A stretch of 62,494 bases of DNA, counting the filler, from Sanchytrium tribonematis (taxonomy: Eukaryota), in the NCBI GenBank assembly GCA_018985235.1. It is 16 parts of 16 records of this genome, joined end to end, with 100 filler letters (N's around TTAATTAATTAA, not from the genome) between each part and the next. Parts side by side here need not be neighbours in the genome. Positions count along the whole stretch, not along the records: positions 8,515 to 11,248 come from JADGIG010001001.1; positions 11,349 to 14,066 come from JADGIG010001002.1; positions 14,167 to 16,882 come from JADGIG010001003.1; positions 16,983 to 19,698 come from JADGIG010001004.1; positions 19,799 to 22,513 come from JADGIG010001005.1; positions 22,614 to 25,328 come from JADGIG010001006.1; positions 25,429 to 28,137 come from JADGIG010001007.1; positions 28,238 to 48,568 come from JADGIG010000099.1; 8 more parts are not named here. One strand, given 5' to 3'. The notes beneath the pieces were generated by a model. It was not told the origin of the DNA. It ran no database searches and worked only from the letters and a program-made list of their open reading frames with translations. Each line of letters opens with the position of its first letter. Position 1 is the first letter of the stretch. Below, in pieces: positions 9,314-62,494 of the stretch. The translations under genes were made by a program, and so were the position numbers.

Positions 9314-11248
9314 TTAGAAAGTGTAATCTGCTGAAAAAGGCTTTTTTGGCTTTCTTTTGTGTTGCTCTAATGAATAATTACCATAAAAAAGACCAATTAA
9401 TAGCAATACATCCACAGATATTTTAATAATTAATCTAAATGTCAATTTAAATTCAAAACATACTGGATTTGGAAATTTTGTGAGATTTTTGGCAGTGATG
9501 CTTTTGGTGGCCATTTCACTGAACGAAGATTCTGTATCGTTGTATATAATACTACTAGCTACAATCAAACTAGATGCTTTGTAAAATACACGCGTCACAA
9601 CTAAATTAATAAAAATAACTTGATCTGGCATCTGTGGTTGGAAATTCCAATTTATCGGGTAGATATGACAAGTAGTACTTTTTACACATGCTATAATTAG
9701 CTACATATGAGCTATTTAGCAAGGGATTAAAGGATAAATCACATTTTGTTAATAAACTCGTGTTTTGCAATTGGACTTCTAAAATAGATGTATTTCCTAA
9801 TACTAATGATGTTGGTTTTTGCAAAATGACCTTGTCGTTGAAGTAATTGCCCTCGTTGGCTAGATCCCCCAATACGACATCATTTAAAGAAGCAGGAAAT
9901 GGGGGCAATGGACCTGTTAGAAAATTCCCTTGAATTCGCAATTGTTGTAAATTGGGTAGTAAAGTAGGAAGTTTGCCTGTCATATTACATCCAACTAATT
10001 GAAGCACTTTTAATGTGCTAGGTAATTGGGGGATCGTTTGATTATAGTTTGCTTTTTTAAATATTAAAGTCTCTAATCCCTCTGAGAATATTGGCAATTT
10101 GCCTCCAATATATGGGCCTTCAATGCTAAGATATTTCACATTCCCTGGAATATAGTCTGGTATTTTTGCTGTTTGATTATAATTGCCAAAAATGTACAAT
10201 GTTTCTAAAGTTGAAGGAATATCTGCAATTGAAAATGCAAACCCGTCTACAGTCTGTAATATATCCCATCCGTTAATATCTATTTTAGTCACATTTAATC
10301 CTGTGCAATCAATATATCTACTACTTTCACAGCAATGCGCATCCCTTACAAAATCACTTTGAATTCCCATTTTTTGAAACATATTCTCAACCAATTTGCA
10401 TGCGCCCAGGGATGGCGGAATCGAATATTTTTGAATTTCTGATTTGCATTTTGTTAAATTGACCAAATTGGCTACTGAAATATTGTTTAGTGAAACATCA
10501 CAAGATCGAATCACACTCGAATTTGTTGTCACAACTTTCTCAATCAGATTATTTCTCAAATTGAATTCAATATATGCTGAAGGACCAATATTTTTCAAAT
10601 ATAATTGAGTCCAAGTATTTCCCTTTAATTCATTTTCCACACTATCAAATTCATTGTCAGCAGCTGAAAACATTTGTAGCTGAATTAAATTGGGAATGGT
10701 GCCATTTAGTTGATTCGTGTCTAGGGCTAAATTGATTAGAGTATTAGGTAATTTGCCAAATATGGGGCCAGTAAACAAATTGTTCGAAAGGTAAAGATTT
10801 TGTAAATTTGTAAAGCCTGACAAGTCCGGAATGTTTCCTTTAATATTATTATTTTCTAAACTCAAATACTGTAGTGTATCCGGTAGTAATGTGGTGTTGA
10901 TGCTGCCATTGAGATTTAAATACCGCAACTCGATATACGTGATTCTATTGGCTTTACATCTGGCATGACCCTTTAAATTATCGCAACAATCACTTTTTTT
11001 CAATATATAGTTGAAGCTCTCCGGGGCAGTTAGATGCATGTTTAATTGTCTTAAAAATAAATAAAATTTGGGTCAATCGATGGAAGGTAGAGATTTAAAT
11101 GATAAATTACATTTCGAGGTCAAAGCAACATCCGCCTGCATTTCTGGATCAAAATAATTATAGATAGTATTGCAATCTTTTATCCCATTACTGTTTGCCA
11201 CAAACAACCAATCAAATTCATTGTCAGTGAGATACAAGGCTGTTATAT
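9314..11248 (-). CDS. Multi-module Cys-capped LRR membrane protein, 5' partial; 19-nt intron at 9601-9619; in-frame TGA at 11073-11075
   Basis: The frame is open from the contig edge to the TGA, then runs through two cap+LRR modules. The intron joins ...DARS-I-VTRVFY... to an exon with a Ser/Thr stalk, a TM segment and a basic tail. Confidence 0.75.
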
Positions 11249-11662
11249 NNNNNNNNNNNNNNNNNNNNNNNNNNNNNNNNNNNNNNNNNNNNTTAATTAA
11301 TTAANNNNNNNNNNNNNNNNNNNNNNNNNNNNNNNNNNNNNNNNNNNNAGCCACAAGAATGACTATGCATACATTTTTTTGGTTGATTCCAGATATAATA
11401 TTCATTTGTCCAACTCTTATTACAATCAACAAATTTTACAAAATCTTGCATCTTGGATAATACCAAACCTTTATCACAGTCGTGCAATGGATTTAAGTGA
11501 CTATATATCTTTTTTCCAAGACAAGGTAGTTGAGCAGTGAATATCGAGATTTAAAGTATCAGGTATTTCGTTTATTATATCAATAAATCAATTAAGCTGT
11601 CCAGTTTCCACACTAACAAAATAGAAAATAATTTTTATCTTTTTGAAACACCGTTTTACCGA

Positions 11663-12424
11663 ATGCTGATCAACGAATATCGAGTCAGATTGCCTCTAAC
11701 AGTCGAAGAATATCAAATTGGGCAATTATATGCAGTTGCAGAAGCATCGAAAGATGAGACTGGAGGTGGAGAAGGTGTAGAAGTACTGAAGAATGAGCCT
11801 TGTGAGTATGAAGGAAAGAAAGGTCAATATACTTACAAAATATACAGATTTTCATCGAAAGTTCCCAGTTTAATTCGAGCTTTGGCTCCATCTGGTTCAT
11901 TAGAAGTGCATGAAGAAGCTTGGAATTGTTACCCGTGGTGTAAAACTGTTCTCACAAATCCATACATGAAAGACAAGTTCAAATTAATTGTTGAAACTAT
12001 TCATCATCAGGACAGCGGTATTACTGAAAATATTCATCAGATTAAAGGTGATGATTTAAAGGAACGACAAGTGGTAAATATTGATATTGCAAATGACAGT
12101 CTAGAACAAAAAGATTACAAAAAGGAATATGATCCCACGTTATTTCACTCTGAGAAAACTAATAGAGGCCCACTAGGTGCTGACTGGATTAAGTCTGTTC
12201 AACCAATTATGACTGCTTACAAACTTGTAACTTGTGAATTTAAATGGTTTGGATTACAATCTAAAATTGAATCTTTAATACAAGATATCCAACACAATTT
12301 AAATATCAAATTTAATCGCCAAGTATTTTGCTCAATTGATCAGTGGCATGGAATGACGATTGAGGACATTCGTCGTCTTGAAGATCAAACAAAAAATGAT
12401 CTTGATGCAAAAAGAGATAAATAA
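11663..12424 (+). CDS. Phosphatidylinositol transfer protein (START-like PITP alpha/beta class)
   Basis: EYRVRLPLTVEEYQIGQLY, GEGVEVLKNEP, EEAWNCYP, YKLVTCEFKWFGLQ. Confidence 0.95.
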   Translation: MLINEYRVRLPLTVEEYQIGQLYAVAEASKDETGGGEGVEVLKNEPCEYEGKKGQYTYKIYRFSSKVPSLIRALAPSGSLEVHEEAWNCYPWCKTVLTNPYMKDKFKLIVETIHHQDSGITENIHQIKGDDLKERQVVNIDIANDSLEQKDYKKEYDPTLFHSEKTNRGPLGADWIKSVQPIMTAYKLVTCEFKWFGLQSKIESLIQDIQHNLNIKFNRQVFCSIDQWHGMTIEDIRRLEDQTKNDLDAKRDK

Positions 12425-12449
12425 ACTGCAATTTCTAATTTTTGAAACA

Positions 12450-13228: not shown

Positions 13229-14066
13229 CTACAATTTTACTGCCTCCATTTTTATCTCATTTGAAAGTTGCAGAAACGTGAGGCAATTGGGACTTTTGTT
13301 CTTGATGACAGATCCAGGATTTACACAAATGGTGAAATCTAATTTTTTGGCAAAAGGACTCAAGACACTTGGAACTATTAGCACGTGAGGAGTAACGGTC
13401 CAATTAATGGGCCTACATAACGGAAGATCTTCAGGAATGGGTACAGATGGCATCGGTCCGTTACTTAAAACAAATTCACAAAGCGTTGAGATTCTATCTT
13501 TCACATTTGTCTTGGCTACTTTTTGGTATGAATTGGATATGTATTTCACTGAGTCACAGCCGGTGCATCCAAATATAATATCGTCAATTGAAAAGGTACA
13601 TGGGCTAGGGAAAAAATGAAAATTTGGCTACATTACTTTATATTACCAGTCCTTGAAAATGATCGTTCAAATCAATCAACTTTGGAGAAGGATAAGTACA
13701 CAAGCTTGATATTGCCTCAAATGGGCTCGACGTAATAATAAATTTTGTATTAGGAAGTACTTCAGAAAGTTTTGCAAGTTTGGATATAAAGATATTATAC
13801 ATATCATCCGGAAACAATTCCAACTCTTTAAGGGAATCTTCATGAACAAATGGGCCATTAAAAATAGCATAATCGGGTTTCTTCGATGCAATTTCTTGAA
13901 TAGCTGAGTCAAAAGCAATCAATCCTCGAGAGTTTCCAAATGGGCCAGAAGCAATGGAAACTATATTATTCGTTGGCGACTCGGGAAAATTTTTGTACAT
14001 GGGAATCTTGGGATGTAAAATACTTTTGACTTGAAAAGCTCTTCCAGAAGTGTTTTTGCCAATTAA
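13229..14066 (-). CDS. POL12: DNA polymerase alpha subunit B, 5' partial; 19-nt intron at 13628-13646
   Basis: IASGPF and NGPFV; splicing restores PNFHFFPSPCTFSIDDIIFGCT; PHVLIVPS..PF and VNPG follow. Confidence 0.85.
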
Positions 14067-15381: not shown

Positions 15382-16171
15382 ATGGAAGACTCGAAAAGAA
15401 CATTTGTTCATAAAATATTTAGTATTTTGGATAATGAGCGATTTAAAGAGATCATAAGCTGGAATGAATTTGGAAATGCATTCACTGTATTTTACCCAGA
15501 AGCTTTTAGTCAAAAAGTTTTACCCTTGTTCTTTAAACACGCCAATTTTTCAAGCTTTGTTCGACAACTAAATTTATATGGGTTCAAGAAAGTTAAAAAC
15601 CGATCATCTATATCGTTTATGCATGATAGATTTTTGCGTGGTAGAACAGATCTTTTAGAAACAATCAAACGAAAAACACCAGAAATCGAATTAAAACCTG
15701 AAGATAAAAGAGACATTCGATTGCTAGAGATGTACTCGCAGTTGCAAGATCAAAAACAAATCATAAAGGAACTCAAAGAAGATTTATTTAAGGAAAAAGA
15801 AAGAAGACATCAGATAAAAGTGAAGTATGACGAACTTTTACAAATTTGCAAAAATAGTAGTCTTCCTTGTAATTTATATTGATTTAGTAACTCCAGATTT
15901 CGAGGTTACTGATCTATTACCTAAACCAGTTCAACACCAAAGTCGCAATTCTTGGTCAAGCGAATTAAATAGCTCTATCATCTCGCCTTTAAGTAGCACG
16001 AGCAACATAACTGCCGCTAATTTAAGCCTCTTCTACAACAACATGAACGACTTCCTAAATACACCGCCAGTATCTCCTGAACGATTACGTCGCTCTGAAT
16101 TATTAAACCCGAATATACAAATATCGGTGGAGCAAAGTTCATTTGACTACCAAAATGACCAATTTGAATAA
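15382..16171 (+). CDS. HSF-type transcription factor; 19-nt intron at 15869-15887
   Basis: HSF DNA-binding domain (IISWNEFG, FFKHANFSSFVRQLNLYGFKK) plus coiled coil; the intron joins it to the 15827-16171 frame. Confidence 0.9.
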
Positions 16172-21131: not shown

Positions 21132-21330
21132 AATAAAATCTTTTATTTTACTTCTTGTATATATACTTTGAAACTTCTGCACAAATCCCTTAAGCTTTGG
21201 AGAAGAAAACAGCTGGCGAAACGTTAGATGTGCAGCATCTCAAATGGCTTTAGTGGCTAGGAATTTTCTATGGTATAAAGTTTTGATTGGAAGATCGACA
21301 TTTAAATGACTCTCACGGTTAAGTTTTAAA

Positions 21331-22513
21331 ATGAATGAATGCAAGGTTGCAGTTGACATACTTCTTAGCGTGAATGCTACCACAACAAAGAAGGCAAACA
21401 ATACTCTAACAGTGGGATGCTGTTCATATCCTCCTCCAACCTCTAGGATATCATGTTCTGACAATCACGTCACCTATTTAAGGATATCAAATCCCTTGTC
21501 ACCTCCAATCGTTTTTGATGCCGAAAAGCTTAAGCAATTGCCATATCTGACATCAGTCAATATTGGTAGTGGGATAAAAGGTCAATTCCCTTCCTTTTCT
21601 TCTAATATTACGTCGATTATTTTGGACAATAGTCAATTTGAAGGTGCAGTAACTTTTCCACCACACACTATTTCTTTTTCGGCTAGAAACTCGAATCTCA
21701 ATGGGACTTTACAAAATTTGCCTTATGAATTGACAACTTTGGATATATCAGGAAATCGATTTACTGGCAATTTTCCATACCTTCAAAATGTGCATTATTT
21801 GGATCTTTCAGAAAATCTTTTCACAGGGTCATTTTACTCGTCGCAATCACTTCAGACACTCATATTATTTGACAACAACTTTTCAAATGTATATTTTTCC
21901 TCATCAGTACAGGATCTCAGATTTTCTGGAAGTCCCCTTGCAAAAATGACTCAGCCTTTCTCACAGCTCTCGCTCTTGAAATCATTAGAATTAAAAAACA
22001 GTTATCTTGGAACGTCCCTACTGACTTCCGATTTAACATCTTTGCCAAGTACTCTAACTAGACTTTCTATCAATGCACCCCAATTTGGAGGTATTTTACC
22101 TCAATTACCCGCAAATTTAACCTATTTGGATCTACAATATTCAAGTTTTGAAGCATTTCATGACTTACCGGGAAATCTTTTGGAATTACATTTAGACAAT
22201 ACGCAAACTATTAAAACAGTTCCTAAATTACCTGAGTCTCTTAAGATTCTCTATATGGGATACTCTCAGATTTCGTCTTTAACTAATATCCCATCAAAAT
22301 TGGAAAGTGTTTGGATGCCTGGAACACAATTTTCCGGTTGTGTGCCTGATTTCCCCAGCTCCCTACTCTTTCTATATGCTCAAGATAATAAGTTCAATTG
22401 TATTATCGAGTTCCCATCTTCTTCTTTACATGTTGAGTTGCAAAGAAATGTATTTAATGTTACAATTCCAAACTTTCCAAAATGCTTGCAAGAACTTGAT
22501 ATAAGTGACAACC
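21331..22513 (+). CDS. Cys-capped LRR protein, 3' partial
   Basis: EC...GCC...ISC cap followed by many LPxxLxxLxL repeats. Confidence 0.8.
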
Positions 22514-23858: not shown

Positions 23859-23971
23859 ACTTTATTATAAATGACATTTTTGGCAATAATTAGCCATGAT
23901 TTGGCGATCATAGTCCAATCGAATAAATTTGAATATTTTTTAAATTGGTCTGAAACATTTATAAAAAATTA

Positions 23972-25328
23972 ATGCTCTTAATTTTTACTTTATTAGTGAA
24001 TGCTATTAATCCGGATTGTCCGGATGTTGTTAATTTGGCAATTGGGTTGAATATGCCCACAGTTTTACCAGATATTTTTGAATTATTAAAAAAAGATTGC
24101 TGCTCCACATATTCTTCTACAACAAGTTATTTATTACCAAATTGTGATCAAAATAACGTGATATCAATAAGATGGGAAAAATTAGATTTAGATGGATTTG
24201 TGAATGAAACTGCTATTCCCTCAAAATTAAAATCTCTATCGTTGTCTAAAAATAGAATTGTGGGAACTTTGCCCAGTCAATTGCCTAAAACATTGCGTAG
24301 TCTTACTTTGTCATGGAATAATCTGCAAGGCACACTCCCGTTATATCAAGATGGCCTTGAAATAATGGAAATTTCACATAATCATATCACCAAGATAATT
24401 GGACTACCAAACACACTGGTGTTTATGATGGCATATGATTGTAGTATTGGTGGAAATTTACCATTATTACCAAATACTCTGTTGGAAGTAGACTTGCAAT
24501 ATAATTTATTTACTGGCAATATCTCTAATTTACCTAGCCAATTAAAATGGCTGGGATTTGATAGGAATCTTTTGACAGGCGTGATTCCCCAAATACTTCC
24601 TTCTACACTTAATTGGATTTCTATGAACTCCAATTTACTATCAGGTGATTTAAATCGAGATTGGCCATTTTCATTACAAAATCTTGGAGTAGAAAACAAT
24701 TTATTATCTGGATATCTTCCATCATTTACAGCTGCTTTATATGCATTACAAGTGTCTGATAATCAATTTAAAGGAGAATTACCTTTTTATGAAGCTGTCA
24801 CGATTTTATATGCAAATAATAATAATTTGACAGGTTGCTTACCACCCATGTACAGTATATCCGATATAGACATCAGCAATAATCATTTTAATGGCAAATT
24901 GCACTTGTTTAGGCCTGTAACATTTGTGATTGCAAATAATAATATTTCTTTGGTAAATTTAGAAAATACAGCTGGTTTAACGAAATGTGATGTATCTAAT
25001 AATCCACTAATGAATACGATACCAGGCTGCATCGCAAATAATATGAGAAATGCAACTCAAGTGGATCCGTGTTTGATCCAGACTGTTCAAACCAGTGAGT
25101 CAGAAATGGCTCAAATTTCTTCAGCAACTTCTTCGGAAACAATAGCAACTAGTGCCCCGCATTCTACAGATGCTGAAGCATATTTTATTCTGACCAGTAC
25201 ACAGAATGAAGTAGATTTGACTGTAAGTTCCACTGATTCTTATGAATTAAACATGGCCTCTAGCACGATTGACTCTGTCAAATCCATTATAATGCAGTCA
25301 AAAACTACTGTATCTATAACACCATCGC
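23972..25328 (+). CDS. Cys-capped LRR surface protein with Ser/Thr stalk, 3' partial
   Basis: Signal MLLIFTLLVNA, cap DCP..LNM..DCC..C, LxLxxNxLxGxLP repeats, C-cap LTKCDVSNNPL, S/T-rich stalk. Confidence 0.85.
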
Positions 25329-25428: not shown

Positions 25429-26737
25429 GTCAATTCCAGCATGAGATTATAGTCAGGTGTATAATCAATGAAATACGACTTGATTTCTTGGTCTAAATTA
25501 ATAAAATTGTACCTTCTTGCCATTGTTGAAAATTTGGAGATTTCATAAATCCGTGTAACAAATGCAATTTGAGCACATTGTAAGCATCCTGCTGTGTCTC
25601 ATCGAAGAATGTTTGATCTTTCTGCACAATCTCATAAGTTGGTACTGGCACGTCCTCAATAATATCTGGTCTGACATTTAATCTCAGAGGCGAGTTCTTG
25701 CGTAAATACATTTTATGGAGGTATCTCGCGAATAATAACCATGTCTCAGGTGGTGATTCTACAAATATCTCTACTTCTAACCAGAATAACAAGTACTCAA
25801 TGGAATACTCCTTATAACAATATTCTGCAAAATATTTAAATCCATTTTTAGATCTGAGAATCTTTTTTAAAGTCATATCGTCTTGGTCTTGGGTCTGTCT
25901 AAATCTTTCTAATGCTATTAACATGCCAGAATGAGTTAATTCTTCTTCATTTTCCTCTACTTGTTTCTCAGAGTGAATAATAATAATCGTGTCATTGTTA
26001 TTCAAGACATCTCCTACTAGCGTATCAAAGTGTATAGGCTGTTCTTGAGAATTTAACACCAGTCTAACCATCAATGGACTCACTTGTTTGCCTTCTAATG
26101 CCTCCAGTTGAAAATTAAAATCAGCTTCAACCAATTTTGCTAAATAATCAATAGATTGGGTGGTATCTACTGTAATTTTGAATTGATATTGCAATAATTG
26201 AATGTTGACTGAAATATTGATGAATTCTACCATTGGATTTCTTTTATTTCTCTTGTTTTCGGCCAAAAATACGCGCAAATCTTTGTCCAATGGGGAAGCA
26301 GTGATTTGGTCTTCTAATTTTGGAGCTTGTTGTTGGTACATTTGTTGTTGTAAAGCATACGCATAGCTATTATAAGGATTCGGATACGCAGGTTGACTAT
26401 AATTTCCAAAGTAATACGCTGGAATGGGCGGGTGAAGCTGCTGGGGAGGGAGAATTGGCCCATAATATTGCATATAATTGTAGTAATCATCTTCATTACG
26501 TGATTCTCGATAGGATTCCCTTTGATAACCTCCCATTTGCTGGTTCTGCTGCTGTTGAGGGATCATTTGAGGTGGAATTTGATTCGGAAGAAGTTGGTTC
26601 ATGGGAGGGGGATAAAAAGTAGATGACAAAGAGCTGACTCTTCTGCGATCTAAAAGTGGTCTTTGTGAACTATTTACGCTGTTTAAACTGCCATGACTTT
26701 GAAAATCAAATGAAGTCTGTCTTCGTCTCTGGTCCAT
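25429..26737 (-). CDS. RGS-domain protein, 3' partial; probable 20-nt intron at 25493-25512
   Basis: ILRSKNGFKYFAEYCYKEYSIEYLLFWLEVE and YLRKNSPLRLNV are typical RGS motifs; splicing keeps the frame open to the contig edge. Confidence 0.8.
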
Positions 26738-29880: not shown

Positions 29881-29959
29881 AAACCGGGAGAAAATGATAG
29901 GCTCTGAATTTCCGAAGCACGTGAAAGATAAAAATTGTAGATTTCAATTTCTTATTCTT

Positions 29960-33208: not shown

Positions 33209-34532
33209 ATGAATTTCGAGTCAGACGATCTTGATTTGACGTTTGATGCAGGAGAAAGGCCAAATTTTCCAAATTTTGGGCAATTGCCAACAACAAAGGA
33301 TCTTTATAGCTTAAATAATGTACATAAGGTCTTGAGGGATATTACCAAAGCAACTGTCACATCATCCATAGAGACTTTTTTAATTATTATGAAAGACGGG
33401 TTGGAGGAAGACTTGATTACCTTGTTAAAATGGTTTTCTTCTAAAAAATGTACGATATTTGTCGAAAGAAAATACAGAGATATTGTAAATGAGAAAGGAA
33501 TTGTATGCTTAATCAATTTTTATTCAGTTACACCCAATTGCGATCTAATTATTACACTTGGTGGTGATGGTACCGTTTTGTATTCTAGCTGGATGTATCA
33601 AAGAATTGTTCCACCTGTTATAGCATTTCACCTCGGGTCTTTGGGATTTTTGACGGTCTTTGACTTTGAGAAACATACTGAGATTTTAGATCGAATTTGG
33701 AAAGGCTCTGGGGTGAGAGTATCAATGCGAATGCGTTTGCAATGTCAAGTTCACAAACTGCAAACAACTAGAGAAGGTAGGATTGAGAAGAAGAAAAATG
33801 TTAAAAAAAGACGATCGGTGTCCGAGACATCGCGGTCACTTACATCCCTTAACTCAGACACAAATTCAGCTCGGGATTATATGGAAGTACCGCCTTCACC
33901 TTTACAATCATTGCGCCTTCTAGCACAAACATTACAAGGAAATGAAGATTATGACGAAGACACTTTACACGTTCTGAATGAAGTAGTCATTGACCGTGGG
34001 CCTTGCCCATTTTTAACGTCTTTGGAAGTATGGGGGGATGGCGCGCTGTTGACGATATGTCAGGCAGACGGACTAGTTATATCTACGCCTACTGGATCGA
34101 CTGCGTATAGTTTGAGTGCTGGTGGTAGTCTGTGTCATCCTGATGTCCATGCGATTTTGGTTACTCCAATTTGCCCTCATACTTTAAGGTAAATACTTTT
34201 TATGAAGTTTTAGGCCAATGATATTGCCAGAGTGCATGGAGCTCAAAATAAGGGTACCCTTGAATTCCAGAAACAATGCTTGGGCTTCATTTGATGGTAA
34301 ACACAGAATTGAATTACACAAGGGCGATTTCGTCACTATTAAAAATTCCCCATTTCCCTTTCCTACTGTGTCCAGTGAAAACACCACTGATGACTGGTTC
34401 AATAGCCTTCAGAGATGTCTTAAGTGGAACGAAAGAGTCATTCAGAAACCTTTGGATTCGGATAGTCGGAGGCTTGATAAACAGTCACGAAGATTATCTA
34501 CTATACCTTCGGAAAGCGAAAACTATCTTTAA
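33209..34532 (+). CDS. NAD kinase; 19-nt intron at 34189-34207
   Basis: LGGDGT, LNEVVIDRG, STPTGSTAYSLSAGG; splicing restores TPICPHTLSFRPMILP. Confidence 0.96.
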
Positions 34533-43036: not shown

Positions 43037-43126
43037 TTCAATAAATATTAAGATTTATAACGACGTGCAAGAACGAAGTATCTTGGCTGGGGTAAATTTT
43101 GTAAACACATCGCACAGCTTGTTAAA

Positions 43127-44138
43127 ATGTCAAGTGCCAATGCTTCTAGAGAAGAGTCATCTTCAGCCATGATTGACATTACTGAACTGGGAAAACATGG
43201 GATCAATGCTGCTGATATCGCAAAATTGAAAAATGCAGGAGTTTGCACAATTAAAGGTCTTCAAATGACAGCTAGAAAAAACTTGTTGAAAGTGAAAGGT
43301 CTTAGTGATACCAAAGTGGACAAAATGAAAGAAGCTGCAGGGAAAATCTGTAGCTCTGGATTTATGAGTGCTCAAGACCTCGAAAAACAGCGAGAGTCTG
43401 TTGTTAAAATATCAACTGGAAGTAAAGAATTTGACAAATTGCTTGGCGGTGGCATTGAAACCCAAAGCATCACTGAAGTGCATGGAGAATTCAGATGTGG
43501 TAAAACTCAGTTGGCTCACACTTTATGCGTTACTTGCCAGCTATCTACCGATGACCATCCTGGTGGAAAGGCAGCTGTAATAGATACAGAGGGCACATTT
43601 AGACCAGAGAAATTGAGAGCTATCGCGGAAAGATTTGAAATGGATCCAGATGAAGTCACTGAGAATGTTATTTATGCTCGAGCGTTCAATAGTGAGCACC
43701 AAATGGAATTGCTGACAGAATTAGCCGCTACATTCGCTCAAGACAAGACCTTTCGACTTCTAGTCGTAGATTCTATAATTGCATTATTTAGAACCGATTA
43801 TAGTGGAAGAGGTGAACTTGCCGACAGGCAACAGAAGCTCAATGGGTTCTTGGCCAACTTGCAAAGAATAGCGGAAGAATTTAATGTAGCTGTTTATATT
43901 ACAAACCAAATGATGAGCGACCCTGGTGGAATGAGTTTCGGTCCAGATAAAAAAGCTGTTGGCGGTCATGTCCTAGCACATGCTGCTGCCACTAGAATTG
44001 CCTTGAGAAAGGGTAGAGGAGATTCCAGAATGGCCAAAATGTAAATGATACTTATTTAGTGTAGACAGTCCAGATATGCCTGAAGCCGAAGCTACATATG
44101 GCCTGTCAGGTGCAGGTATAATTGATGCACAAGAGTAA
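43127..44138 (+). CDS. DMC1: Meiotic recombinase DMC1; 19-nt intron at 44041-44059
   Basis: GEFRCGKTQL and GGHVLAHA; splicing restores MAKIVDSPDMPEAEA, where DSPDMPE is DMC1-type rather than RAD51 DSPCLPE. Confidence 0.93.
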
Positions 44139-44168
44139 ATTATTTCTTTTATAAATTTCCCAAGTTTC

Positions 44169-45090: not shown

Positions 45091-45266
45091 ATGATTTGAC
45101 TATATTTATTGCTCGAATTTCCACATGTGTAAAAAGCCAATTGTTAGACATAGCGAGAATCCTTGAACTGCAACAGAAGGGTTTTTAAGTCTACGAAGCA
45201 TCTCCCTTGTTAGTAAATGTATCAAACAAACTATCAGGTTGAAAATCCCCGTAATACAAAACACAA

Positions 45267-45899: not shown

Positions 45900-45968
45900 T
45901 TGAAAATAAAATGATGTGTACGATTTTGCTTTTAGGAGGAATTTGAAACCTAATTCTATTTGTAACAT

Positions 45969-47166
45969 ATGGAAAGATCTCTAATGAAATTCTTATTATT
46001 TCTTATAATTTTATTTGCCATAATATTGGGTATTTGGCTCTTCGGTCCATCCGGAATTAAAAGTAAGAACAAATTTATGCGAATTATAGGAAAAACTTAT
46101 CTTGGATTGGATTACATTTTTGGTAAAATTGCTATATTGTTTAATGCAATCACCCCAAATTGGATCAAAAACTGTTTTGGATATGTCGCCTTCCAAAGAC
46201 ATCCCATAATGCAAATTTTATTCGTTGTACTTTACGGCGCAGGGGCCTTAATTTTTATGTGGAAAGCCCATAATAGGCTTTATGTCGATGAGATTAATCG
46301 CTTGCATTATTATTTTGCACCTATCGTGGCCTATATCCAATTTTATATATTTTATTTGGCTTGCTATAGTGATCCTGGGATTATAACAAAAGATAATTGC
46401 CATGTGGCATTAAAACAATACCCTATTGACGAAATCATATTTTTCCATCAGGAATGTAAAACATGTTTATTTAAAAAGCCTGCAAGAAGCAAACACTGTA
46501 GTTTATGTAATGTGTGCATAGCTAAGTCTGACCACCATTGTCCTTGGCTAAATACTTGTGTTGGTCAAAATAACTTGAGATTTTTTTTTGCATTTTTGTA
46601 TTGGATGGTATTTTCCACATTTTATTGTTTTTATCTTATTTATTATTTATTTATGGTTGAAATGAAATCTCAAGGTTGGATTGACAATGTTTATTCTATT
46701 TGGGAATTGTTTGCAATATGGAAAGGCCCTATTGTTAATTTTACGTTTTTCCGAAATGGAAGTCCTAGCGGCACTATTAAACTGTCTGTTTTACAGTCAG
46801 TTCAAGTAATTTGCATTTATTTAGATCTATTCGCTGAATGATGGGTGGCTTGCTGTGCTTGGTTTGACTTGTATCGTGACCTCCATTGTTGTGCTATTAT
46901 TTACCACATACCATATATACCTGAACGTGGTGAAGGGAATGAGTTCCAATGAATACATGAAGTTCGACGATGTGATTTATTATATTAACAACCATAAGAT
47001 ATATTATAATGGGAAAAATTTGATCTCTGTGCAGAGTGATGGACAGAGGCCTGTTGACAAGAATGTGTTCCTTAATTATCCTCCAAACATTTATAACCAA
47101 GGCATTATTAAGAACATTCTGCTCATTTTGTTCCCACCAAACTTGAACAAAAAAATAAAAAATTGA
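45969..47166 (+). CDS. DHHC palmitoyltransferase (Swf1/ZDHHC4-like); 19-nt intron at 46806-46824
   Basis: SDPGII and KPARSKHC...DHHCPWLNTCVG; the intron joins the last TM, SSNE and NIYNQG. Confidence 0.92.
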
Positions 47167-47173
47167 CATTTTC

Positions 47174-48568
47174 ATGAAACAAGAACAAGACAAGCATCTA
47201 TTTAAAATTAAATCCAGGATAGAGAACTTTGAATTTGCTTCTTACATTCACTTAAGTTATTTGAATCTGAGATTCAATAAGTTGGAAACTATTGAGTTTG
47301 TCATGTTTATGCCAAATTTACAATTTTTAGATGTGGGAATCAACAATATACAAAACTTAAATTTAGATCGAGGTTTTGTTAGCAATTTAAAGGTTCTGAG
47401 AATTGAGGGAAACTTGATTTACAGATTGGAAGAGTTTTTAAGGCTAAAAAGTCTTGAGCATCTTGTGGTGGAGTATCAGTCCTATACAAATCCATTGTGT
47501 AATTCTAAAGAGTATCCACATAAATTTTACAGTTTTTTAGAATTGACGAGTCTAGATGGGTTTGAGCAAAATGGCTCACTGGTAAGTAGGGAAGTCTTGT
47601 TTGGGTACAAATATTTCAAGTCCAATCTTAAACCACCCATACTTTCCTTAGACAAGGAGATAGAAACGAAATGCAATTACAGCCACTGTGGTTTCCAGGT
47701 CAGCCCTGAAAACCGCAATAAATCTATTCAATGTCAGCTAATTGATCAAAAGTCGAGGAATTTAATGTTTGAAATTCAAGAAACTAGCAAAATTCAAGCA
47801 CAACAAATTTCAAATTTAAAGAATATTAACAAAAAACTAGAGGCTGAGGCTCAAAAAATGAAAAGAGAGTTAGCAATATCTAGACAATCTTCGGAAGAAA
47901 CTTTGAACGAATACCTGACGATATCGAAGTCAATTGGCAATTTTAAAGATTCATATTTGCAAAAATTTGATCAAACGAATATTAAATTAAAAAGTGCCAC
48001 TCAGGAATTGGAAGAAAAAGATAAAAAGATTGAATCCCTGGAAACCACGATAACTTCATTAAAATTGAATATGAAAAAGTTAATAATGAACAATAAAGTT
48101 TTAAGTGAATCTAATGCTGACAAAGAACATGAAATTCAAGATTTAAATTCGGATTATTCTAAGTTGAAGACTTCTTACTACAAATTAAAAGAAGATATGG
48201 AAAAAATGGAGAATGAGGAATACTACAAAAATGAAAAAGTTCAATTTGCTAAGAAAATGGCTGAACAAATTGTTGAAGCTGCCGAGGATTCAATGACTAC
48301 TATACGGGCAAACAATATCAAATTCGCAATATTTTTTAGCTGTTCTAAGGCAATTATTACAGGTGCTATGAAATGGGCAAATCAAATAAGAAGGTACAAT
48401 AATAATTTTAGGCCATTTTCTGATCTAGACAATATTAAAAGTAAATTGAACGAAATTTGTAAGTCTACACTTGATACTTATCACAGATACAATGAAAAGA
48501 AATCAAACCTTGAATCGTGTACTTTCACTTTTGCTGAAAAGATCAAAAATGTGAAGCAAGCCTTGGAC
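47174..48568 (+). CDS. LRR + coiled-coil protein (LRRCC1/CEP97-like), 3' partial
   Basis: SDS22-like LRRs, LRRcap NPLC...LTSLDG, long coiled coil. Confidence 0.6.
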
Positions 48569-48668: not shown

Positions 48669-50372
48669 CTATCAACAGCAGTGTTGGTATTCGCGCTTAT
48701 CAAAATTTTAAACTCATCCGCCTGCGAATGCTGTTCATCAATCGCAGTTTGAATTGTATTATATAGTAACATTATAGATATTGCGATGATGAAAGATTTT
48801 CCACACCCAAAATACCCTATATGAAATTGAGTTACCATGACAAAGAGTTACCGGCAAATCAGTGTGTTCAAAGACTGAGCGAGCAATTGTATGAACTAAG
48901 GTTTCTTGATCGAAATTTAAGTGCTTTCCAGTTTCGCAAATTATAAGTTCCAATTCAGTTTCCCAATCATATTTCCAATTTAAATTCAAATCGGAGTTGT
49001 AAAGTTTCTGGCTTAGGTAATCAAAAATTGGAAGTTGCAGATCTAGTAATTGGTCTAAAGTATTGATGACGTTAACGTCAAAATGAAATCCTAATTGCAA
49101 TGCGCAAACAGGGTATTTGCTGCTTTGGGACAGCCAATTATCCAAAACATCACTATTTTTTGTTCCAAGACTATTGATAACTATATCAGTATATTTTTGA
49201 TTTTTTCCTGGAAAAACTCGATTTGTAGCTACCACAAAAGCACAAGATTGAAAGTTTTCAGACTTTGACATTGCCCATATCTCATTTATAGAAATGGAAA
49301 GACTTTTCGGTACTCTCAATACAATCTCTGCCCCATCATTCTCGGATTTGCAATATACATAGCAATTGTTATACAAGAATTTAGAATCTTTATCTTTTTT
49401 AGATTGAGAAAGTTGATTAAATTGAAGATTGGAAGAAATAAGCACATGTTCAACTATTGCTTTTTTTAAAGATGCAAAATAATCTTCCGAATTTTTAAAT
49501 ATATCTTCTATACAATGTCGCCTACTTCTAGTTATTTTCTTATCTAAAGCTAAATCATCTAACGACTTTATCTCGAATTTGGGGCGTTTTGAAGCTTTGC
49601 TTGACTGTGGAAGATGACGTTTGGTCATTTGTTTCTGCTCTATATTACTTTCCAACAAGGAAAGCACATCTTCATTTTCTTTCTCTAATAAGGACAAGAC
49701 TTCGTTTTCAGCCTTCTCTGCCTTTAATGATACAATTTTGTTGTCATGCAACAAGATTCTTTCAGTAGCTGCATTTTTAGAATTCTTTTTAAAGGGAGTT
49801 TTAAATGGCTTAAATGGTCTTACCTCCACTTTCTTCGGGGAAGGTAGAATTTCTATTTCTTTGAATTTTTTGGGATCGTCTTCCGATTTGTACACTTGAT
49901 CAATATATACATGGTATTTAAATTTAATCGTAAATTCGCTTCCAACTTCCAAAACTTTCGATCCTATCAAATCTCGAGTAAGTTTTTTCTTTTCCTCATC
50001 ATATAAGACAATGTAGTCACCGTTGATAGATATATATCCATCAGAATAATTTTTGACTTTTTTATGTAATTGGGGAGAGTACAAAGCAACAAAATCAAAA
50101 TTGAAAGAAGCTTCATCTTGATCTATTGGCATTGGCTCAACTGCTGGTTGCCCAGGGTGATTAAATGTATCTATAAGTACCCTTTCTTCTGACCGAACAT
50201 GATAAAAACATAAATTAGCCAAATTTTCAATATCACCAGTTATTTTTCCTTCCGCAATCCAATCTCCATTCTGATCTTCTAATTTGTATTTCCCATGAGC
50301 TTTTACAGTGATGAGGCCTTCTTTCCAAACACTTCTTCCCTTTTTGGATTTAAATTGTGCCGAGTATTTCAT
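48669..50372 (-). CDS. ZGRF1: ZGRF1/Mte1-like protein (DUF2439 + SF1 helicase), 3' partial; 19-nt intron at 48817-48835
   Basis: FVALYSPQLHKKVKNYSDG (DUF2439); splicing restores Walker A LCHGYFGCGKS followed by ILISANTNTAVD. Confidence 0.8.
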
Positions 50373-53054: not shown

Positions 53055-53375
53055 TCAAACTTGTTTGTATTTATTGAATAAATATGTAAAATAGCCATAT
53101 ACCAGACTGGCTAGCAGAATCCATTTCATGCAGTATCGAACTAATTTAATGCCTTTCCATGTTAATATGATTCCAAATCCGTATACGCAACCCATTAAAA
53201 TGATTTTGGGGTGTTCTAAAATCGAATTATAGCTGAATAAGAGCGTATTATAGCTGGCATCTTTTAATGCACCTGGTGGAAGTGACTGATAAAGTAATTT
53301 GGATGCGACTGTGATGGGATTATACCGTGCAATAAATAATACGACATCGTATGCAGAAGTTGGAATGTCAAACAT
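53055..53375 (-). CDS. Small orphan membrane protein
   Basis: C-terminal hydrophobic segments; RYNPITVAS motif. Confidence 0.5.
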   Translation of the reverse strand: MFDIPTSAYDVVLFIARYNPITVASKLLYQSLPPGALKDASYNTLLFSYNSILEHPKIILMGCVYGFGIILTWKGIKLVRYCMKWILLASLVYGYFTYLFNKYKQV

Positions 53376-53428
53376 TTTTGACGATGAAACAAGTGGCAAA
53401 TCTCTAAAAATAGATTTGAAAAGATGTT

Positions 53429-53794
53429 TTATTCAGAAATGTGCTTGACAAATGCATAAGCAGCTACTCCAATACATGCCCACCATAAAATAGTTCCAAT
53501 AATACTCATAAATGAAAATATGACTGCACCCACTGCATTTGTAAGCCAACTGGCCATTAAAGTAGCAGGATTAAATCGAATAACATTCATTAATGATGTC
53601 GTGGCAGCATTAAATGACGCAGCAGTGAATCCATTCTGTTCTATATCTTTAAATAAGTCATAAAACCATTGTAATGATAAAAATACTGGATTATTCTTGA
53701 GGAGATAGAAAAAGGCATCTGAAATAGTCGTATCATGTAATGGTTGAATAAATTGTGAGTCAATCCAATGTGAGATTGTAGAATGTCTTTCCAT
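53429..53794 (-). CDS. Small orphan membrane protein
   Basis: C-terminal hydrophobic segments; RFNPATLMAS motif. Confidence 0.55.
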   Translation of the reverse strand: MERHSTISHWIDSQFIQPLHDTTISDAFFYLLKNNPVFLSLQWFYDLFKDIEQNGFTAASFNAATTSLMNVIRFNPATLMASWLTNAVGAVIFSFMSIIGTILWWACIGVAAYAFVKHISE

Positions 53795-54268
53795 TTTGTT
53801 TTAGAGGGAAATTTATGTTTAAAAAGAAATTGAATTTTAGACAACACATTTGAATTTACTAGACCAAAAGGGAATTGGCTGAAACTACCATTTATGAATT
53901 AAAATATGCACACTGTGATGATGATTGCTGTCAGCAATTGTGCGCTCAATAGATGAATTTTGATTTTTCTCCAATTGAAACATTCTAAATTCATTCACTA
54001 GTTTATTTATTGCATTTTATATTCCATTTACACTTTAATATACCAAATTCGCTCTACATTATCATAAATTACTAAGAGATTGCATGTATCTATACCAATA
54101 ATATCCCAAAATCACTCCACAACTTACTAAATAAATGGAAGAACCAACCAAATAGAATTTAAGATTCANNNNNNNNNNNNNNNNNNNNNNNNNNNNNNNN
54201 NNNNNNNNNNNNTTAATTAATTAANNNNNNNNNNNNNNNNNNNNNNNNNNNNNNNNNNNNNNNNNNNN

Positions 54269-55880
54269 TACTAGAGTCACTTGCGTAGCAGGAAAGATTG
54301 ATTCTATTGATTGGCATGGATTAAATTTAAATGGGACATTTCAAGCTTATTTACCTTCTTCGTTGGTCTATCTCGATTTGAGCAGCAACCAATTAACTGG
54401 AAATTTGCCAGCAACTGGATATCCAGTCACGCTTCAAAGATTTAGAATTTATAGAAATCAATTTTACGGAACAATTCCTGTATTTCCAGATGGTCTTATA
54501 GAAATGCTAATTTCCAGCAACAGATTCAACAATTTTACCACTTTTCCAAAGAATTTGACAATATTGGATTTAAATTATAACAAGCTAAATCGATTTTTTC
54601 CCCAAGATCTCCCTCAAAAACTCGAAATTGCCAGGTTTCAGGGAAACAAAATTTACGGAAATGTAAGCAATTTACCAGATACACTCACTGAATTTGATAT
54701 ATGTTCGAATCAAATTGAAGGAATCGTTCCGAAATTACCATCTCGAATTGTCAATTTTAATGCCTGTCTCAACAAATTACAAGGATTGGCGTATCCCTTC
54801 CCAGATACTTTGATTTATACCAATCTAGATTATAACCAAATTGTAGCACCAGTCCTATTTCCTCCAAATATTCAAAGGTTTTTAGGAAATAATAATTTCT
54901 TTTATGGAAAATTACCTCTTCTTCCACCAACTGCATCTAGAATCACATTTGATTCTTCTAGATTGACAGGTGATATTTCTAATGTCACATTTTACCATGT
55001 TCAACCCAATTTCATTTCTCCATTAACGAGTTTACAGCTTCAAGGAAATTTGTTTACGGGTCAAATTCCACAAATACCTGCCAATTTGATAGAATTGCTA
55101 CTGCATGCCAACCAATTAACGGGGTTATTACCTGCTTTGCCATTTGGTTTAAGTACATTAACGCTTTCCAATCAGTTTTTATTTGGTACCATTTATTTGA
55201 AACAAGTCGAAGTATTAGACATTTCAAATACTTTGATCTCCAACATCACCATATTGGATACCTCAAAACTCACTTATTGTAAACTTTCAGGCACACCTAC
55301 ATTGAATAATACAAATGTGGAGAAATTGTTTCCAATTTGTGAGCATTTGAATTTATTCAAATTGACAAATGCTGAAAAAACTACAAGTCAGCTGCCATTT
55401 TCCACCATTACATCCGAGAACAGCCAATTGATCACATCCGAAATGTATTCATCTACTCAAATTTCGCTAGAAAGAAGCGAAAAACTGAATTTCAATGCAG
55501 CAAGCAGTGAATATTCTATTCCTTTAACAGCATATGAAGTGCATTCAACTCCAATTATCAGAATTTTAAAACGTGCAACGATAACTAGAGTGTCAACTCT
55601 AAACAACTCTCTAGAAATGCAATTTTCAACTACATTCTTTGAATCATCAGAAACTCAAGAAGCAACACAAATAGACCCCATCACTATTGCACAAAACACC
55701 GAACAGAATGCTAATTATTTGTTTATTGCTGGATTGTGCGTGATAGCTTTCATTGGAATTGGTTTATTACTTGTCAAATTTGTTTTAAAGAATCCAAAAA
55801 TCAGAATCAGATTAAGAAATAATGACCAAGTGACTATAGGGACTTCTGCTGATGGACCACGCAAGAAATATCACTTTTAA
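54269..55880 (+). CDS. Cys-capped LRR type I membrane protein, 5' partial
   Basis: Frame open from the contig edge (RVTCVAGKIDSIDWHGLNLNG), then many LRRs, C-cap LTYCKLS, S/T stalk, TM segment and short basic tail. Confidence 0.85.
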
Positions 55881-59825: not shown

Positions 59826-60181
59826 GACACATAAAGCTAGTGCATAGCCCACCTTTACCCTGCTTATATTGTCATAGAAAGATTAAATTTAAAGGCAGGA
59901 TAGACTTACTGAGGCAGCATCTTGTTAGATGCGATGATTTTATTAAACACTGCAATGAAATTCATCAAAATGGCGGAAGAGATATTGAAGAAATAATAAA
60001 CGAGAAGTGCTACAAGATATATGAAGAAAGCAAAGCGCTATTTTTGAATCTAAGTGGATCTCCATCACCCCAAAGTCCAGAAATGTCTACAAATTATGCA
60101 ATTGGTCATTCTAATGGATTAAATGGTGCAAAGTCACCATCTGCTACTAGTACTAATGGATTTATGGACTATAGAAACTAA
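59826..60181 (+). CDS. BED-type zinc-finger protein fragment, 5' partial
   Basis: CLYC...LRQHLVRC. Confidence 0.5.
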
Positions 60182-60422
60182 ATAAATCGAGATTTGCTAG
60201 ATAATTTATAAAGATTTGGCAATTGAAAGATTTAAAACCTGGAGAGTATCTGAACAAGCATGCCGTTGCTACAACCTCATGGCTTTTATGAGTTTATTTA
60301 CTTTGATGTGACTTTAAATACGCTTATCTATCCAGTCAGACTACTGCTTATATCTTTACTCAAAAGATTGCTGAGGTATTTCAAATTTCAAAAAATAAAC
60401 GGAAGTTTTTCCAGACAAGGAG

Positions 60423-60983
60423 ATGAGTGATCACGAAGAAGCAGTCGAACACTTTGAACCAACAGCTACATATGAGCCAGTCGTGCACTTGGAAAAAGTA
60501 GATGTGAAATCTTTAGAAGAAGATGAAACTGTTTTATTAAAGCAACGTGCCAAATTGTACAGATTTGATAAAGATGCCAATGAATGGAAGGAGCGTGGCG
60601 TAGGTGACATCAAATTACTCTTAAATAAAGGAAATGCAAGAGTAAGAGTCTTAATGAGAAGAGATAAAATTCAAAAGATCTGTGCAAATCATTATATTGA
60701 CAAATCCATGGAATTGAAGCCTAATGTGGGCAGTGATAAGAGTTGGGTCTATACAGCACAAGATTATAGTGAAAACGAGGCCAAATTTGAACAATTTGCT
60801 TTAAGATTTAAAAATAGCGAATTAGCCAATATTTTCAAGGATAAATTTGAGGAATGTACTGCTTGGAATGAGTCCGTTTTAAAGGATAATAAAACCATCA
60901 AGGATAAAGAGTGTCCTAAACCATTAGAAGACACTGTAAAAGACAAGGAAGACTCAAAAGATGCTAAAAATGCAGATAAATAA
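60423..60983 (+). CDS. YRB1: Ran-binding protein 1
   Basis: RAKLYRF, EWKERGVG, KICANH, NVGSDKSWV. Confidence 0.96.
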   Translation: MSDHEEAVEHFEPTATYEPVVHLEKVDVKSLEEDETVLLKQRAKLYRFDKDANEWKERGVGDIKLLLNKGNARVRVLMRRDKIQKICANHYIDKSMELKPNVGSDKSWVYTAQDYSENEAKFEQFALRFKNSELANIFKDKFEECTAWNESVLKDNKTIKDKECPKPLEDTVKDKEDSKDAKNADK

Positions 60984-60993
60984 ATTCTCTCAT

Positions 60994-62494
60994 TTATTGC
61001 TTTTGGAAGAATTGCCACAACATTTTCGGCTGTTTATTCTTATAAGCAGCATATCCAATGGCAATTACTGCCCCAATAAGTGCCATGTATGTCAATTGTT
61101 TCTTAAAAGTCGTTTCAAAAGATTGTCGCTTTATATTTCTAAATCAGCATAAAATTACGGTTGCATGGCCATGGCTATCATTACGTAAAACACATCTGCT
61201 AAATAATCTTTGGTGCAACTAATATGAAGTGGTTTCTCCAATCCATACGTCTTTGTAAACATATCTGGCTGCATTTCACATTTCTGTGGCACATTATCTA
61301 AATCTGACTTGTTTGCAATAAATAAACATGGATAATCTGTTAAATATTGCGTATATAGATTTGCGATGAAGCTAAATGAATTAGAATCTGAGGAATCATA
61401 AATTAAACAAATTACATCAGATCCCTCTAAAACATGCTTATTCTCACTCATAAACACATCATTCGTGTATTTACTGCCATATTCTTGCAATATCAAGTAT
61501 TTTTCAGTCCCCTTGTACTCTACAGTATTAATAACAGATTGGACATTTGAAGGAGAATATTTGCTAAATTGGGTTTGTGGTTTGGTAAACATGTGTAATA
61601 AGCTAGATTTTCCACTACCAGCAGCACCCAAAACCAATATTCTAAACACCGTGCGTTGTTTTCTTTGTTTTAATTTGTCTTTTAAAAATAAACATTTTAA
61701 ACCATTTAGCGCATAAGATTTGGCAAGACTGGATTGATAATCATATTGACCAAATACTTGTGATGTAGAAATGGCTGTATTGCTACTTAAATTGGTGATA
61801 GATTTGTTATTTAAATCTGTTTCAAATGTAATTTGATTTGGACCATCAAATCCCAAATAATTGAGATATTCGAGTAGTTTAGATGGATTCAGACTGGCTA
61901 ATTTGTGGAATTCGGCAAGGAATTGTTGTAAAGTGCAATTATCTGTAATTAATGGATTTGGACACACTTGAAATAAATCTTGTAAATCAGCCAATTCTAA
62001 CATGCCATCTCTATCTAGATCATATTTAAGGAATAAATCAGTTAGAAATGAAATGCCTTTGGGTGATAATTCAGTATAATCACAATTAGGGATGGGAGGA
62101 TGTAAATATTCATCCCTGAGAAATAATTCATTAGAATATCCGAATTTCCTGAGTATAATCCATGTCGTTTCAACTCTACCACGCTGTATAAATAGCTTAT
62201 TTAAATATAAGAATCCATCTAATGTCACTGTTTCATTTTGTAAATATTTTGAATTATATTCAGAAATGGCATCTTTAATGCCCTGTAATTCTAATTTCTG
62301 TAGTGGATTACCAAACACCTTTTCTTGAAAGTAGTTCAGATCCTCATCTGATAGAAATCCGTCTTTATTTGAGTTCACTAGAGTGAAAATGCGAATTAAA
62401 GCGTCTCTACAATCTGGCTTTAATTGATGAGATTTATGGTCATATAAGACTTGTGTGGGATATAATACTGCTTTTTGTGCAAAATAGAAGCATT
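60994..62494 (-). CDS. GEM1: Mitochondrial Rho GTPase Miro/Gem1, 5' partial; 20-nt intron at 61139-61158
   Basis: Two EF-hands, QRGRVETTWIILRKFGY, second GTPase GAAGSGKS; splicing restores the C-terminal TM anchor. Confidence 0.93.

What the first reader, a model, noticed from the sequence alone, without database searches (positions are those of the whole stretch)
9601..61158. Genome-wide system of 19-20 nt spliceosomal introns in a fungus-like genome
Eleven broken genes on seven contigs are each repaired by removing one tiny GT..AG segment. The 19-nt cases are 9601-9619(-), 13628-13646(-), 15869-15887, 34189-34207, 36969-36987(-), 44041-44059, 44626-44644, 46806-46824 and 48817-48835(-). The 20-nt cases are 25493-25512(-) and 61139-61158(-). 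Removal restores conserved motifs exactly in NADK, DMC1, NOT4, POL12, ZGRF1 and Miro. I found no longer intron. From established knowledge, fungal introns are typically 50 nt or longer, and sizes like these are known from heterotrich ciliates (15-16 nt) and chlorarachniophyte nucleomorphs (about 18-21 nt). I infer an independent origin of tiny introns and a modified spliceosome; I cannot check whether this is already published.
Basis: partly seen in the sequence, partly recalled or inferred. Interest (0 to 1): 0.92.

Follow-up and report, generated by a model that had tools for sequence, protein, structure and literature searches.

The report
Tiny 19-base introns in sanchytrid fungi
Eleven genes of this sanchytrid fungus are each interrupted by a 19-20-base GT...AG insert that is likely a spliced intron; these would be shorter than any fungal intron in the papers found, and public protein sets carry the genes cut off at the insert.

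Summary
All 11 segments are real GT...AG inserts of 19 or 20 nt. Each joins a long upstream frame to a downstream coding frame. In DMC1, NADK and NOT4 the 19-nt cut gives the best, gap-free match to homologues among about 100 alternative deletions. All 11 end T-N-A-T-N-W-A-G, placing a likely branch adenosine 6 nt from the end, as in Stentor. The organism is a sanchytrid fungus: DMC1 groups with Amoeboradix gromovi at 100/100 support. Relatives' unspliced protein tails decode to 19-, 20- and 23-nt introns with the same -6 A, so the trait likely spans the group. Public sanchytrid proteomes came from TransDecoder on genomic contigs and hold these genes truncated; five sanchytrid-plus-intron searches found no description. 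No RNA was available, so splicing is inferred. A. gromovi keeps most spliceosome factors searched, but no Slu7, Prp18, U1-C or p14 row was found, so 'modified spliceosome' is only partly supported. Tiny introns are a known kind (ciliates, mikrocytids, nucleomorphs, myxozoans, microsporidia); this looks like a new, independent fungal case. Earlier scan notes cover tiny introns in Rozella and Neolecta, none in sanchytrids.

The parts
9601..9619 (-). 19-nt intron, phase 1, in an LRR protein gene (CDS 11039-9620 + 9600-9314); exon 2 adds a hydrophobic segment
   Evidence: no homologue test
13628..13646 (-). 19-nt intron, phase 0, in POL12/POLA2 (DNA polymerase alpha subunit B; 5' part off the contig)
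   Evidence: exon 2 matches solved POLA2 residues 453-567, E 1e-11, and PF04042 116-210; exon 1 has no Pfam/PDB hit, only an Atlas lead to PF04042 at 0.87
15869..15887 (+). 19-nt intron, phase 1, in an HSF-type transcription factor gene (15382-15868 + 15888-16171)
   Evidence: junction not tested against homologues
25493..25512 (-). 20-nt intron, phase 1, just after the RGS domain (exon 2 runs off the contig after 20 codons)
   Evidence: weakest case, short exon 2
34189..34207 (+). 19-nt intron, phase 2, in NAD kinase (33209-34188 + 34208-34532)
   Evidence: Pfam 1-71 | 72-124; best of 96 frame-restoring deletions against 40 homologues; three relatives incl. A. gromovi break at the same codon
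36969..36987 (-). 19-nt intron, phase 0, in an 869-aa protein of unknown family (39240-36988 + 36968-36615)
   Evidence: only weak DUF hits below Pfam cut-offs
44041..44059 (+). 19-nt intron, phase 2, in DMC1 (43127-44040 + 44060-44138)
   Evidence: Pfam 1-221 | 222-244; best of 104 deletions against 40 homologues; ENA relatives P0002 and P0122 break at the same codon
44626..44644 (+). 19-nt intron, phase 1, in NOT4 (44169-44625 + 44645-45090)
   Evidence: spliced protein aligns gap-free over the junction with A. gromovi and environmental homologues that lack the insert; best of 126 deletions
46806..46824 (+). 19-nt intron, phase 0, in a DHHC palmitoyltransferase (45969-46805 + 46825-47166); exon 2 starts with a hydrophobic helix
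   Evidence: PF01529 5-87 of 133 in exon 1; hydrophobicity; exon 2 has no DHHC Pfam or PDB hit
48817..48835 (-). 19-nt intron, phase 1, in a ZGRF1-like helicase; it splits a Walker-A-like G-x-x-G-x-G-K-S motif (label recalled)
   Evidence: PF10382 in exon 1; AAA_11 27-66 in exon 2, E 0.0016, below cut-off; spliced peptide
61139..61158 (-). 20-nt intron, phase 2, in Miro GTPase; exon 2 encodes the C-terminal hydrophobic tail anchor
   Evidence: alignment with homologue tails; second-haplotype SNPs in exon 2 are both synonymous in the spliced frame, and one SNP falls at intron +4
54054..54072 (-). candidate twelfth 19-nt intron with full consensus near the end of a hydrophobic ORF that enters from the contig edge
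   Evidence: not tested against homologues

Best explanation
The window is DNA of a sanchytrid fungus whose genes carry 19-20-nt GT...AG inserts that are likely U2-type spliceosomal introns, with a predicted branch adenosine fixed 6 nt from the 3' end. Shown: the inserts, their consensus (GTAA at the start in 8 of 11; T-N-A-T-N-W-A-G at the end in 11 of 11), exact repair of three conserved proteins, and conserved positions in relatives. Inferred mechanism: U1/U6 read the short GTAA donor. U2 pairs with the U-N-A-U motif, and A(-6) attacks G(+1) to give a lariat loop of 14-15 nt with a 5-nt tail. The AG 5 nt downstream is then joined without a polypyrimidine tract, so branch point and acceptor act as one 8-nt signal and length is held at a steric minimum. 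With so short a branch-to-AG distance Slu7 would be dispensable (yeast: 9 nt or fewer, PMC10158995), which fits its absence from the A. gromovi annotation. The introns likely shrank independently within Sanchytriomycota as these algal parasites compacted their genomes (10.5-11.2 Mb, PMC8371127).
For: Anatomy. Homologue tests: 19-nt GT..AG removal gives the top, gap-free score among 104 (DMC1), 96 (NADK) and 126 (NOT4) deletions. Independent sequences: NADK of P0126 decodes to a 20-nt intron (the only feasible length from 10 to 33, apart from a 34-nt fit ending at its stop), with the tail VFVQ* being exon 2 read out of frame. P0127 (NADK) and P0002 (DMC1) decode to 19 nt and A. gromovi DMC1 to 23 nt, all with A at -6; the latter three also have T at -8. 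Exon 2 scores best in the spliced frame in 11 of 11 (stops penalise other frames). In Miro 23 of 24 exonic haplotype differences are synonymous in the spliced frame. No indels in DNA contigs at depth about 90-210 across 6 of 11 sites. Spliceosome core present in A. gromovi. Same -6 geometry in Stentor (PMC9505925).
Against: No spliced transcript was seen. The -6 A is a predicted branch point, not mapped. Homologue-level proof covers 3 of 11 sites; RGS, HSF, LRR and the 869-aa gene rest on frame, codon usage and motif. For P0127, P0002 and the A. gromovi tail, introns longer than the decoded length are not excluded. Missing annotation rows for Slu7/Prp18 may reflect divergence, splitting by introns or recalled identifiers, and come from A. 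gromovi, not the window's species. No snRNA was seen (none in the window).
Confidence: 0.92

Rival explanations
1. The breaks are sequencing or assembly errors, for example single-base indels in an amplified genome.
For: The window is a fragmented draft, and sanchytrid genomes were obtained after whole-genome amplification (PMC8371127).
Against: Homologues require loss of exactly 19 nt, not 1-2 nt. Other organisms break at the same codons. No indels across 6 sites in contigs at depth about 90-210, and a second haplotype keeps the 20-nt Miro insert. A shared GT...TNATNWAG consensus is not expected of errors.
Confidence: 0.01
2. The inserts are real former introns that are now mostly unspliced, so the genes make truncated proteins or depend on inefficient splicing, as in microsporidia.
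For: Short E. cuniculi introns are spliced at under 20% (PMC6349667), and Mikrocytos introns at 37-63% (PMC10245619). The introns here lie in the 3' half of genes, where retention leaves most of the protein intact.
Against: Exon 2 stays open and coding-like in 11 of 11. It carries essential parts: the NADK C-domain, the DMC1 C-terminus, the Miro tail anchor and the helicase Walker A-like motif. Miro exon-2 SNPs are synonymous. Partial splicing is compatible with the best explanation; complete loss is not.
Confidence: 0.05
3. The segments are removed or skipped without the spliceosome, by Ire1/tRNA-type cleavage as for the short HAC1 intron (recalled) or by ribosomal bypassing.
For: The length is similar to that recalled for non-canonical fungal HAC1 introns.
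Against: All have GT-AG ends and a U2-type branch motif, are 19% GC and lie in unrelated genes. None shows the C-N-G|C-N-G junction recalled for Ire1 sites. The sister species has spliceosome genes.
Confidence: 0.02

Closest known systems
Stentor coeruleus 15-16-nt spliceosomal introns (PMC9505925; section 2.1 and passages read)
   Same: GT-AG ends, AU-rich, two adjacent lengths, branch A 6 nt from the end with a 5-nt tail, about 18% of genes with introns (here 11 of about 57 genes or gene fragments, hand count)
   Different: 4 nt longer here (loop 14-15 vs 10-11 nt); invariant T at -8 and -5, whereas Stentor has no strong branch consensus; Stentor introns are 5'-biased, these lie in the 3' half; unrelated lineage
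Mikrocytos mackini 16-17-nt and chlorarachniophyte nucleomorph 18-21-nt introns (PMC10245619; section 7 read)
   Same: Narrow size range at the short extreme and conserved sequence; reduced genomes; the size overlaps the nucleomorph range
   Different: Mikrocytos keeps only 17-19 spliceosomal proteins and no U1 snRNA was identified, while A. gromovi keeps U1-70K, Luc7, Prp40 and both U2AF subunits; here introns also occur in a metabolic gene (NADK); nuclear genome of a fungus
Microsporidian (Encephalitozoon cuniculi) about 25-nt introns (PMC6349667; part 1 of 4 read)
   Same: Fungal-related parasite with tiny GT-AG introns
   Different: Shorter here (19-20 nt); ribosomal protein genes RPL21 and RPS20 are intron-free and no intron follows the start codon; far more introns per kb; separate lineage (sister to Blastocladiomycota per PMC8371127)
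Myxobolid and dicyemid short introns, median 22-27 nt (PMC13644364; part 1 of 3 read)
   Same: Convergent intron shortening in compact parasite genomes
   Different: Animals; longer; reduced splice-site motifs there, while a fixed 3' motif is seen here

Membership tests
U2-type spliceosomal introns | GT...AG termini | tested here: met
   11 of 11
U2-type spliceosomal introns | Precise removal restores the conserved protein | tested here: met
   DMC1, NADK, NOT4 against homologues; the other 8 by frame, codon usage or domain only
U2-type spliceosomal introns | Branch-point motif (U-N-A-Y) near the 3' end | tested here: met
   T(-8), A(-6), T(-5) in 11 of 11; A(-6) in 4 of 4 decoded relatives; sequence only
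U2-type spliceosomal introns | Excision from mRNA as a lariat | not testable with these tools
   no RNA data were available to lay
U2-type spliceosomal introns | Spliceosome (snRNAs and core proteins) encoded by the organism | tested here: inconclusive
   core proteins listed for A. gromovi; the sheet for the second species was cut; snRNAs not in the window; no genome held
Ultra-short uniform-length intron systems (Stentor, Mikrocytos, nucleomorph type) | All or nearly all introns within a 2-4 nt range under about 22 nt | tested here: inconclusive
   met for 11 of 11 in 62 kb; in-frame 18- or 21-nt introns would be missed; one A. gromovi intron decodes to 23 nt; genome-wide distribution not available
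Highly reduced spliceosomes (microsporidia, Mikrocytos) | Loss of most spliceosomal proteins incl. U1 snRNP and U2AF | tested here: not met
   A. gromovi table has U1-70K, Luc7, Prp40, BBP, U2AF65 and U2AF35; tested in the relative, not the window's species
Sanchytriomycota | Proteins group with a named sanchytrid | tested here: met
   DMC1 clade with A. gromovi 100/100 (32 rows picked from 124 held); NOT4, RPL21 and RPS20 share clusters with A. gromovi; rRNA not in the window

The most novel reading that the evidence does not exclude
The whole fungal phylum Sanchytriomycota has converged on Stentor-like ruler splicing. It would have some 2,000 introns per genome of 19-23 nt, a branch point fused to the acceptor, a largely complete early spliceosome that has shed the second-step factors Slu7/Prp18, and an inverted 3'-biased intron distribution with recent gain or loss between species. 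These would be the shortest fungal introns known, and they were missed in the published sanchytrid proteomes.
Probability: 0.4. Interest if true: 0.85.

Novelty: new variant of a known kind. Interest (0 to 1): 0.74.

Why it matters
How short an intron the spliceosome can remove is an open question, and each independent lineage at the limit tests which parts change. A fungal case allows direct comparison with yeast genetics and structures. It predicts that Slu7/Prp18 become expendable when the branch point is fixed 5 nt from the AG, and it shows the Stentor geometry (A at -6) arising again. In practice about one gene in five here is truncated in public sanchytrid proteomes (EukProt), which can bias gene counts, domain architectures and gene-loss claims for this phylum; re-annotation with a 15-nt minimum intron size would fix that.

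Tried and rejected
No whole genome was held, so no genome-wide scan or snRNA inventory was possible. The sequencing-run search listed one DNA holder and no RNA holder; this is no evidence on expression. The metagenome scan with DMC1 gave 4 distant loci (48-58%), none a sanchytrid and none with an intron at this site in the three readable ones. Rfam found nothing in the window. PDB searches of POL12 exon 1, ZGRF1 exon 2 and DHHC exon 2 gave no useful hit. The NOT4 exon-1 homologue search returned only Paraphysoderma. The 869-aa gene stays unidentified (the Atlas request did not complete). A relaxed scan for 5'-proximal introns gave 8 candidates, all inside or antisense to long uninterrupted ORFs, and they were rejected. 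A changed genetic code was rejected: the inserts shift the frame (3n+1, 3n+2) and add 19 nt relative to homologues. Ancestral intron positions could not be shown: none of 116 non-sanchytrid NADK homologues breaks at this codon, but most are spliced models and so uninformative. The Stentor genome paper was not held. Supplement limits: two files of PMC8371127 (main supplementary PDF, Supplementary Data 2) were too large to read and the annotation table was cut early in its second sheet, so a remark on introns there cannot be excluded.
Full report
The window. It is 16 contigs joined by N spacers, 33.6% GC, densely packed with eukaryotic genes. No whole genome was held.

The observation. All 11 segments are GT...AG, 19 nt (9) or 20 nt (2), on 7 contigs. 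In each, one phase links an upstream frame of 140-755 codons to a downstream frame of 20-147 codons, and the unspliced frame stops within 1-25 codons. The inserts are 19% GC. T(-8), A(-6), T(-5) and W-A-G are present in 11 of 11, and GTAA starts 8 of 11. The strict motif occurs 10 times at 19 nt against 1.2 +/- 1.0 in 100 shuffles; at 20 nt it occurs 3 times against 1.2, which is not significant alone; the motif came from these sites, so the test is partly circular. The tenth 19-nt hit is a new candidate at 54054-54072 minus. A rescue scan over 12-120 nt found 18 motif-bearing alternatives of other lengths; 16 reuse one of the 11 acceptors and 2 are untested.

Tests that do not use the motif. 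I deleted every block of 1-40 nt starting within 9 nt of the site and scored the junction against homologues. The 19-nt GT..AG cut gave the top, gap-free score for DMC1 (104 variants, 40 homologues) and NADK (96 variants, 40 homologues), and for NOT4 (126 variants, 6 homologues). For NADK and NOT4 several 19-nt cuts give the same peptide, and only one of them is GT..AG. Pfam positions run on exactly for NADK and DMC1. Miro exon 2 supplies the hydrophobic tail found in homologues. POL12 exon 2 matches solved POLA2, but exon 1 has only an Atlas lead. DHHC and ZGRF1 exon 2 gave no PDB hit. Exon 2 scores best in the spliced frame in 11 of 11, a test helped by stops in the other frames.

Not an assembly error. 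One DNA run holds the sequence and may be its source. A second haplotype in Miro differs at 24 listed exonic sites, 23 of them synonymous in the spliced frame including both in exon 2, and at one intronic site.

The organism. The closest DMC1 relative (84%) clusters with EukProt Amoeboradix gromovi. A 32-row tree, picked from 124 held proteins, puts the window, two ENA proteins and A. gromovi in one clade at 100/100. NOT4, RPL21 and RPS20 also cluster with A. gromovi. The window is therefore a sanchytrid distinct from A. gromovi (71-84% identity). PMC8371127 speaks of two known species, so Sanchytrium tribonematis is the likely name; that is inference.

Relatives. Their DNA could not be fetched, but their unspliced ORFs read into the introns. 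All three close NADK relatives break at the same codon as the window. P0126's tail fits only a 20-nt intron among lengths 10-33, followed by exon 2 out of frame. P0127 and DMC1 P0002 fit 19 nt and A. gromovi DMC1 fits 23 nt, all with A at -6, though longer introns are not excluded for these three. A. gromovi NADK gives no length. The NOT4 intron is absent from the relatives.

Mechanism. The geometry (branch A at position 14-15, 5-nt tail) matches Stentor's A at position 10-11 with a 5-nt tail (PMC9505925, section 2.1). I infer U2-type splicing with branch point and acceptor fused into one signal. The A. gromovi eggNOG table lists Prp8, SF3B1, both U2AF subunits, BBP, U1-70K, Luc7, Prp40, Cwc25, Yju2, Isy1, Prp17, Prp22/Prp16-type helicases, Mago, Upf1 and Upf2. 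It has no row for Slu7 or Prp18 (by name and by recalled KO and KOG numbers), nor for U1-C or p14 (recalled numbers only). Slu7 is unnecessary when the branch-to-AG distance is 9 nt or fewer (PMC10158995, passages), so its loss would fit. Absence from an ORF-based annotation is weak evidence, though, and the spliceosome is clearly not reduced like that of Mikrocytos.

What is known. Reported tiny introns are 15-16 nt in heterotrichs, 16-17 in Mikrocytos and 18-21 in nucleomorphs (PMC10245619, passages and section 7), median 22-27 in myxobolids (PMC13644364, part 1 of 3) and about 25 in E. cuniculi (PMC6349667, part 1 of 4). The 2026 myxozoan paper names only microsporidia among fungi in the part read. 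PMC8476143 (passages) gave no shorter fungal case. Earlier scan notes mention 26-30-nt Rozella introns (unchecked) and none on this genome.

Is it in print? The sanchytrid genome paper predicted proteins with TransDecoder on genomic contigs; its only 'intron' hit is in a reference title, as is that of PMC10459994. Eight of 8 unspliced, truncated window ORFs looked up by exact sequence are EukProt entries, and the truncated NADK is in the collection too. Searches for sanchytrid, Amoeboradix, Sanchytrium or Sanchytriomycota with intron or spliceosome, and for shortest introns with Blastocladiomycota, found no description; apart from the two sanchytrid papers their hits were seen as listings only. 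Subscription journals and two large supplements were not seen.

Verdict. The feature is real and very likely a set of spliceosomal introns (0.92), pending RNA. It is a new, apparently unreported variant of a known kind: 11 introns in about 57 genes or gene fragments, roughly 2,000 per genome if the density holds (extrapolation). The 3' placement and the possible Slu7/Prp18 loss are testable extras. Interest 0.74.

Noticed in passing
all intron-bearing genes: The introns lie in the 3' half: 0.51-0.92 of CDS length in 7 of 7 complete genes (one-sided chance 0.008 by hand), about 0.76 in POL12 and 0.93 in Miro by homologue offsets. RPL21, RPS20 and H2B are intron-free. This is the reverse of the 5' bias reported for Stentor and E. 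cuniculi. The sample is small and partly ascertained.
   Followed up: partly
window 44626-44644: The NOT4 intron is absent from A. gromovi and six environmental or NCBI members of its cluster, so it was gained in this lineage or lost in theirs. Conversely A. gromovi DMC1 lacks the window's intron and has an inferred 23-nt one four codons after the DSP motif.
   Followed up: partly
window 28600-48568 and 59826-62494: The DNA run shows two haplotypes at about half depth each with clusters of mostly synonymous differences. With an intact spliced DMC1 and a BRCA2 gene, this hints at a diploid or mixed, possibly sexual, population.
   Followed up: partly
ENA proteins P0002, P0122, P0126, P0127, P0247-P0250, P0260, P0411: Unnamed metagenome proteins represent at least two or three further sanchytrid-like lineages beyond the two described species (pairwise identities 71-94%).
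   Followed up: partly
PMC8371127 supplementary file 4, rows 1135-1136: A. gromovi BBP/SF1 appears as two neighbouring ORFs on one contig, as expected if an unannotated intron splits it.
   Followed up: no
window 9609-11072, 21310-22512, 23954-25327, 47159-48568, 54270-55877: Five LRR-rich genes in 62 kb suggest an expanded LRR family in this algal parasite.
   Followed up: no
window 54054-54072 (-), 53058-53800 (-): Candidate twelfth intron, followed by two small hydrophobic ORFs of unknown family.
   Followed up: partly
window 28238-48568: Extreme gene packing, about 18 genes in 20 kb with intergenic gaps often under 50 nt.
   Followed up: no
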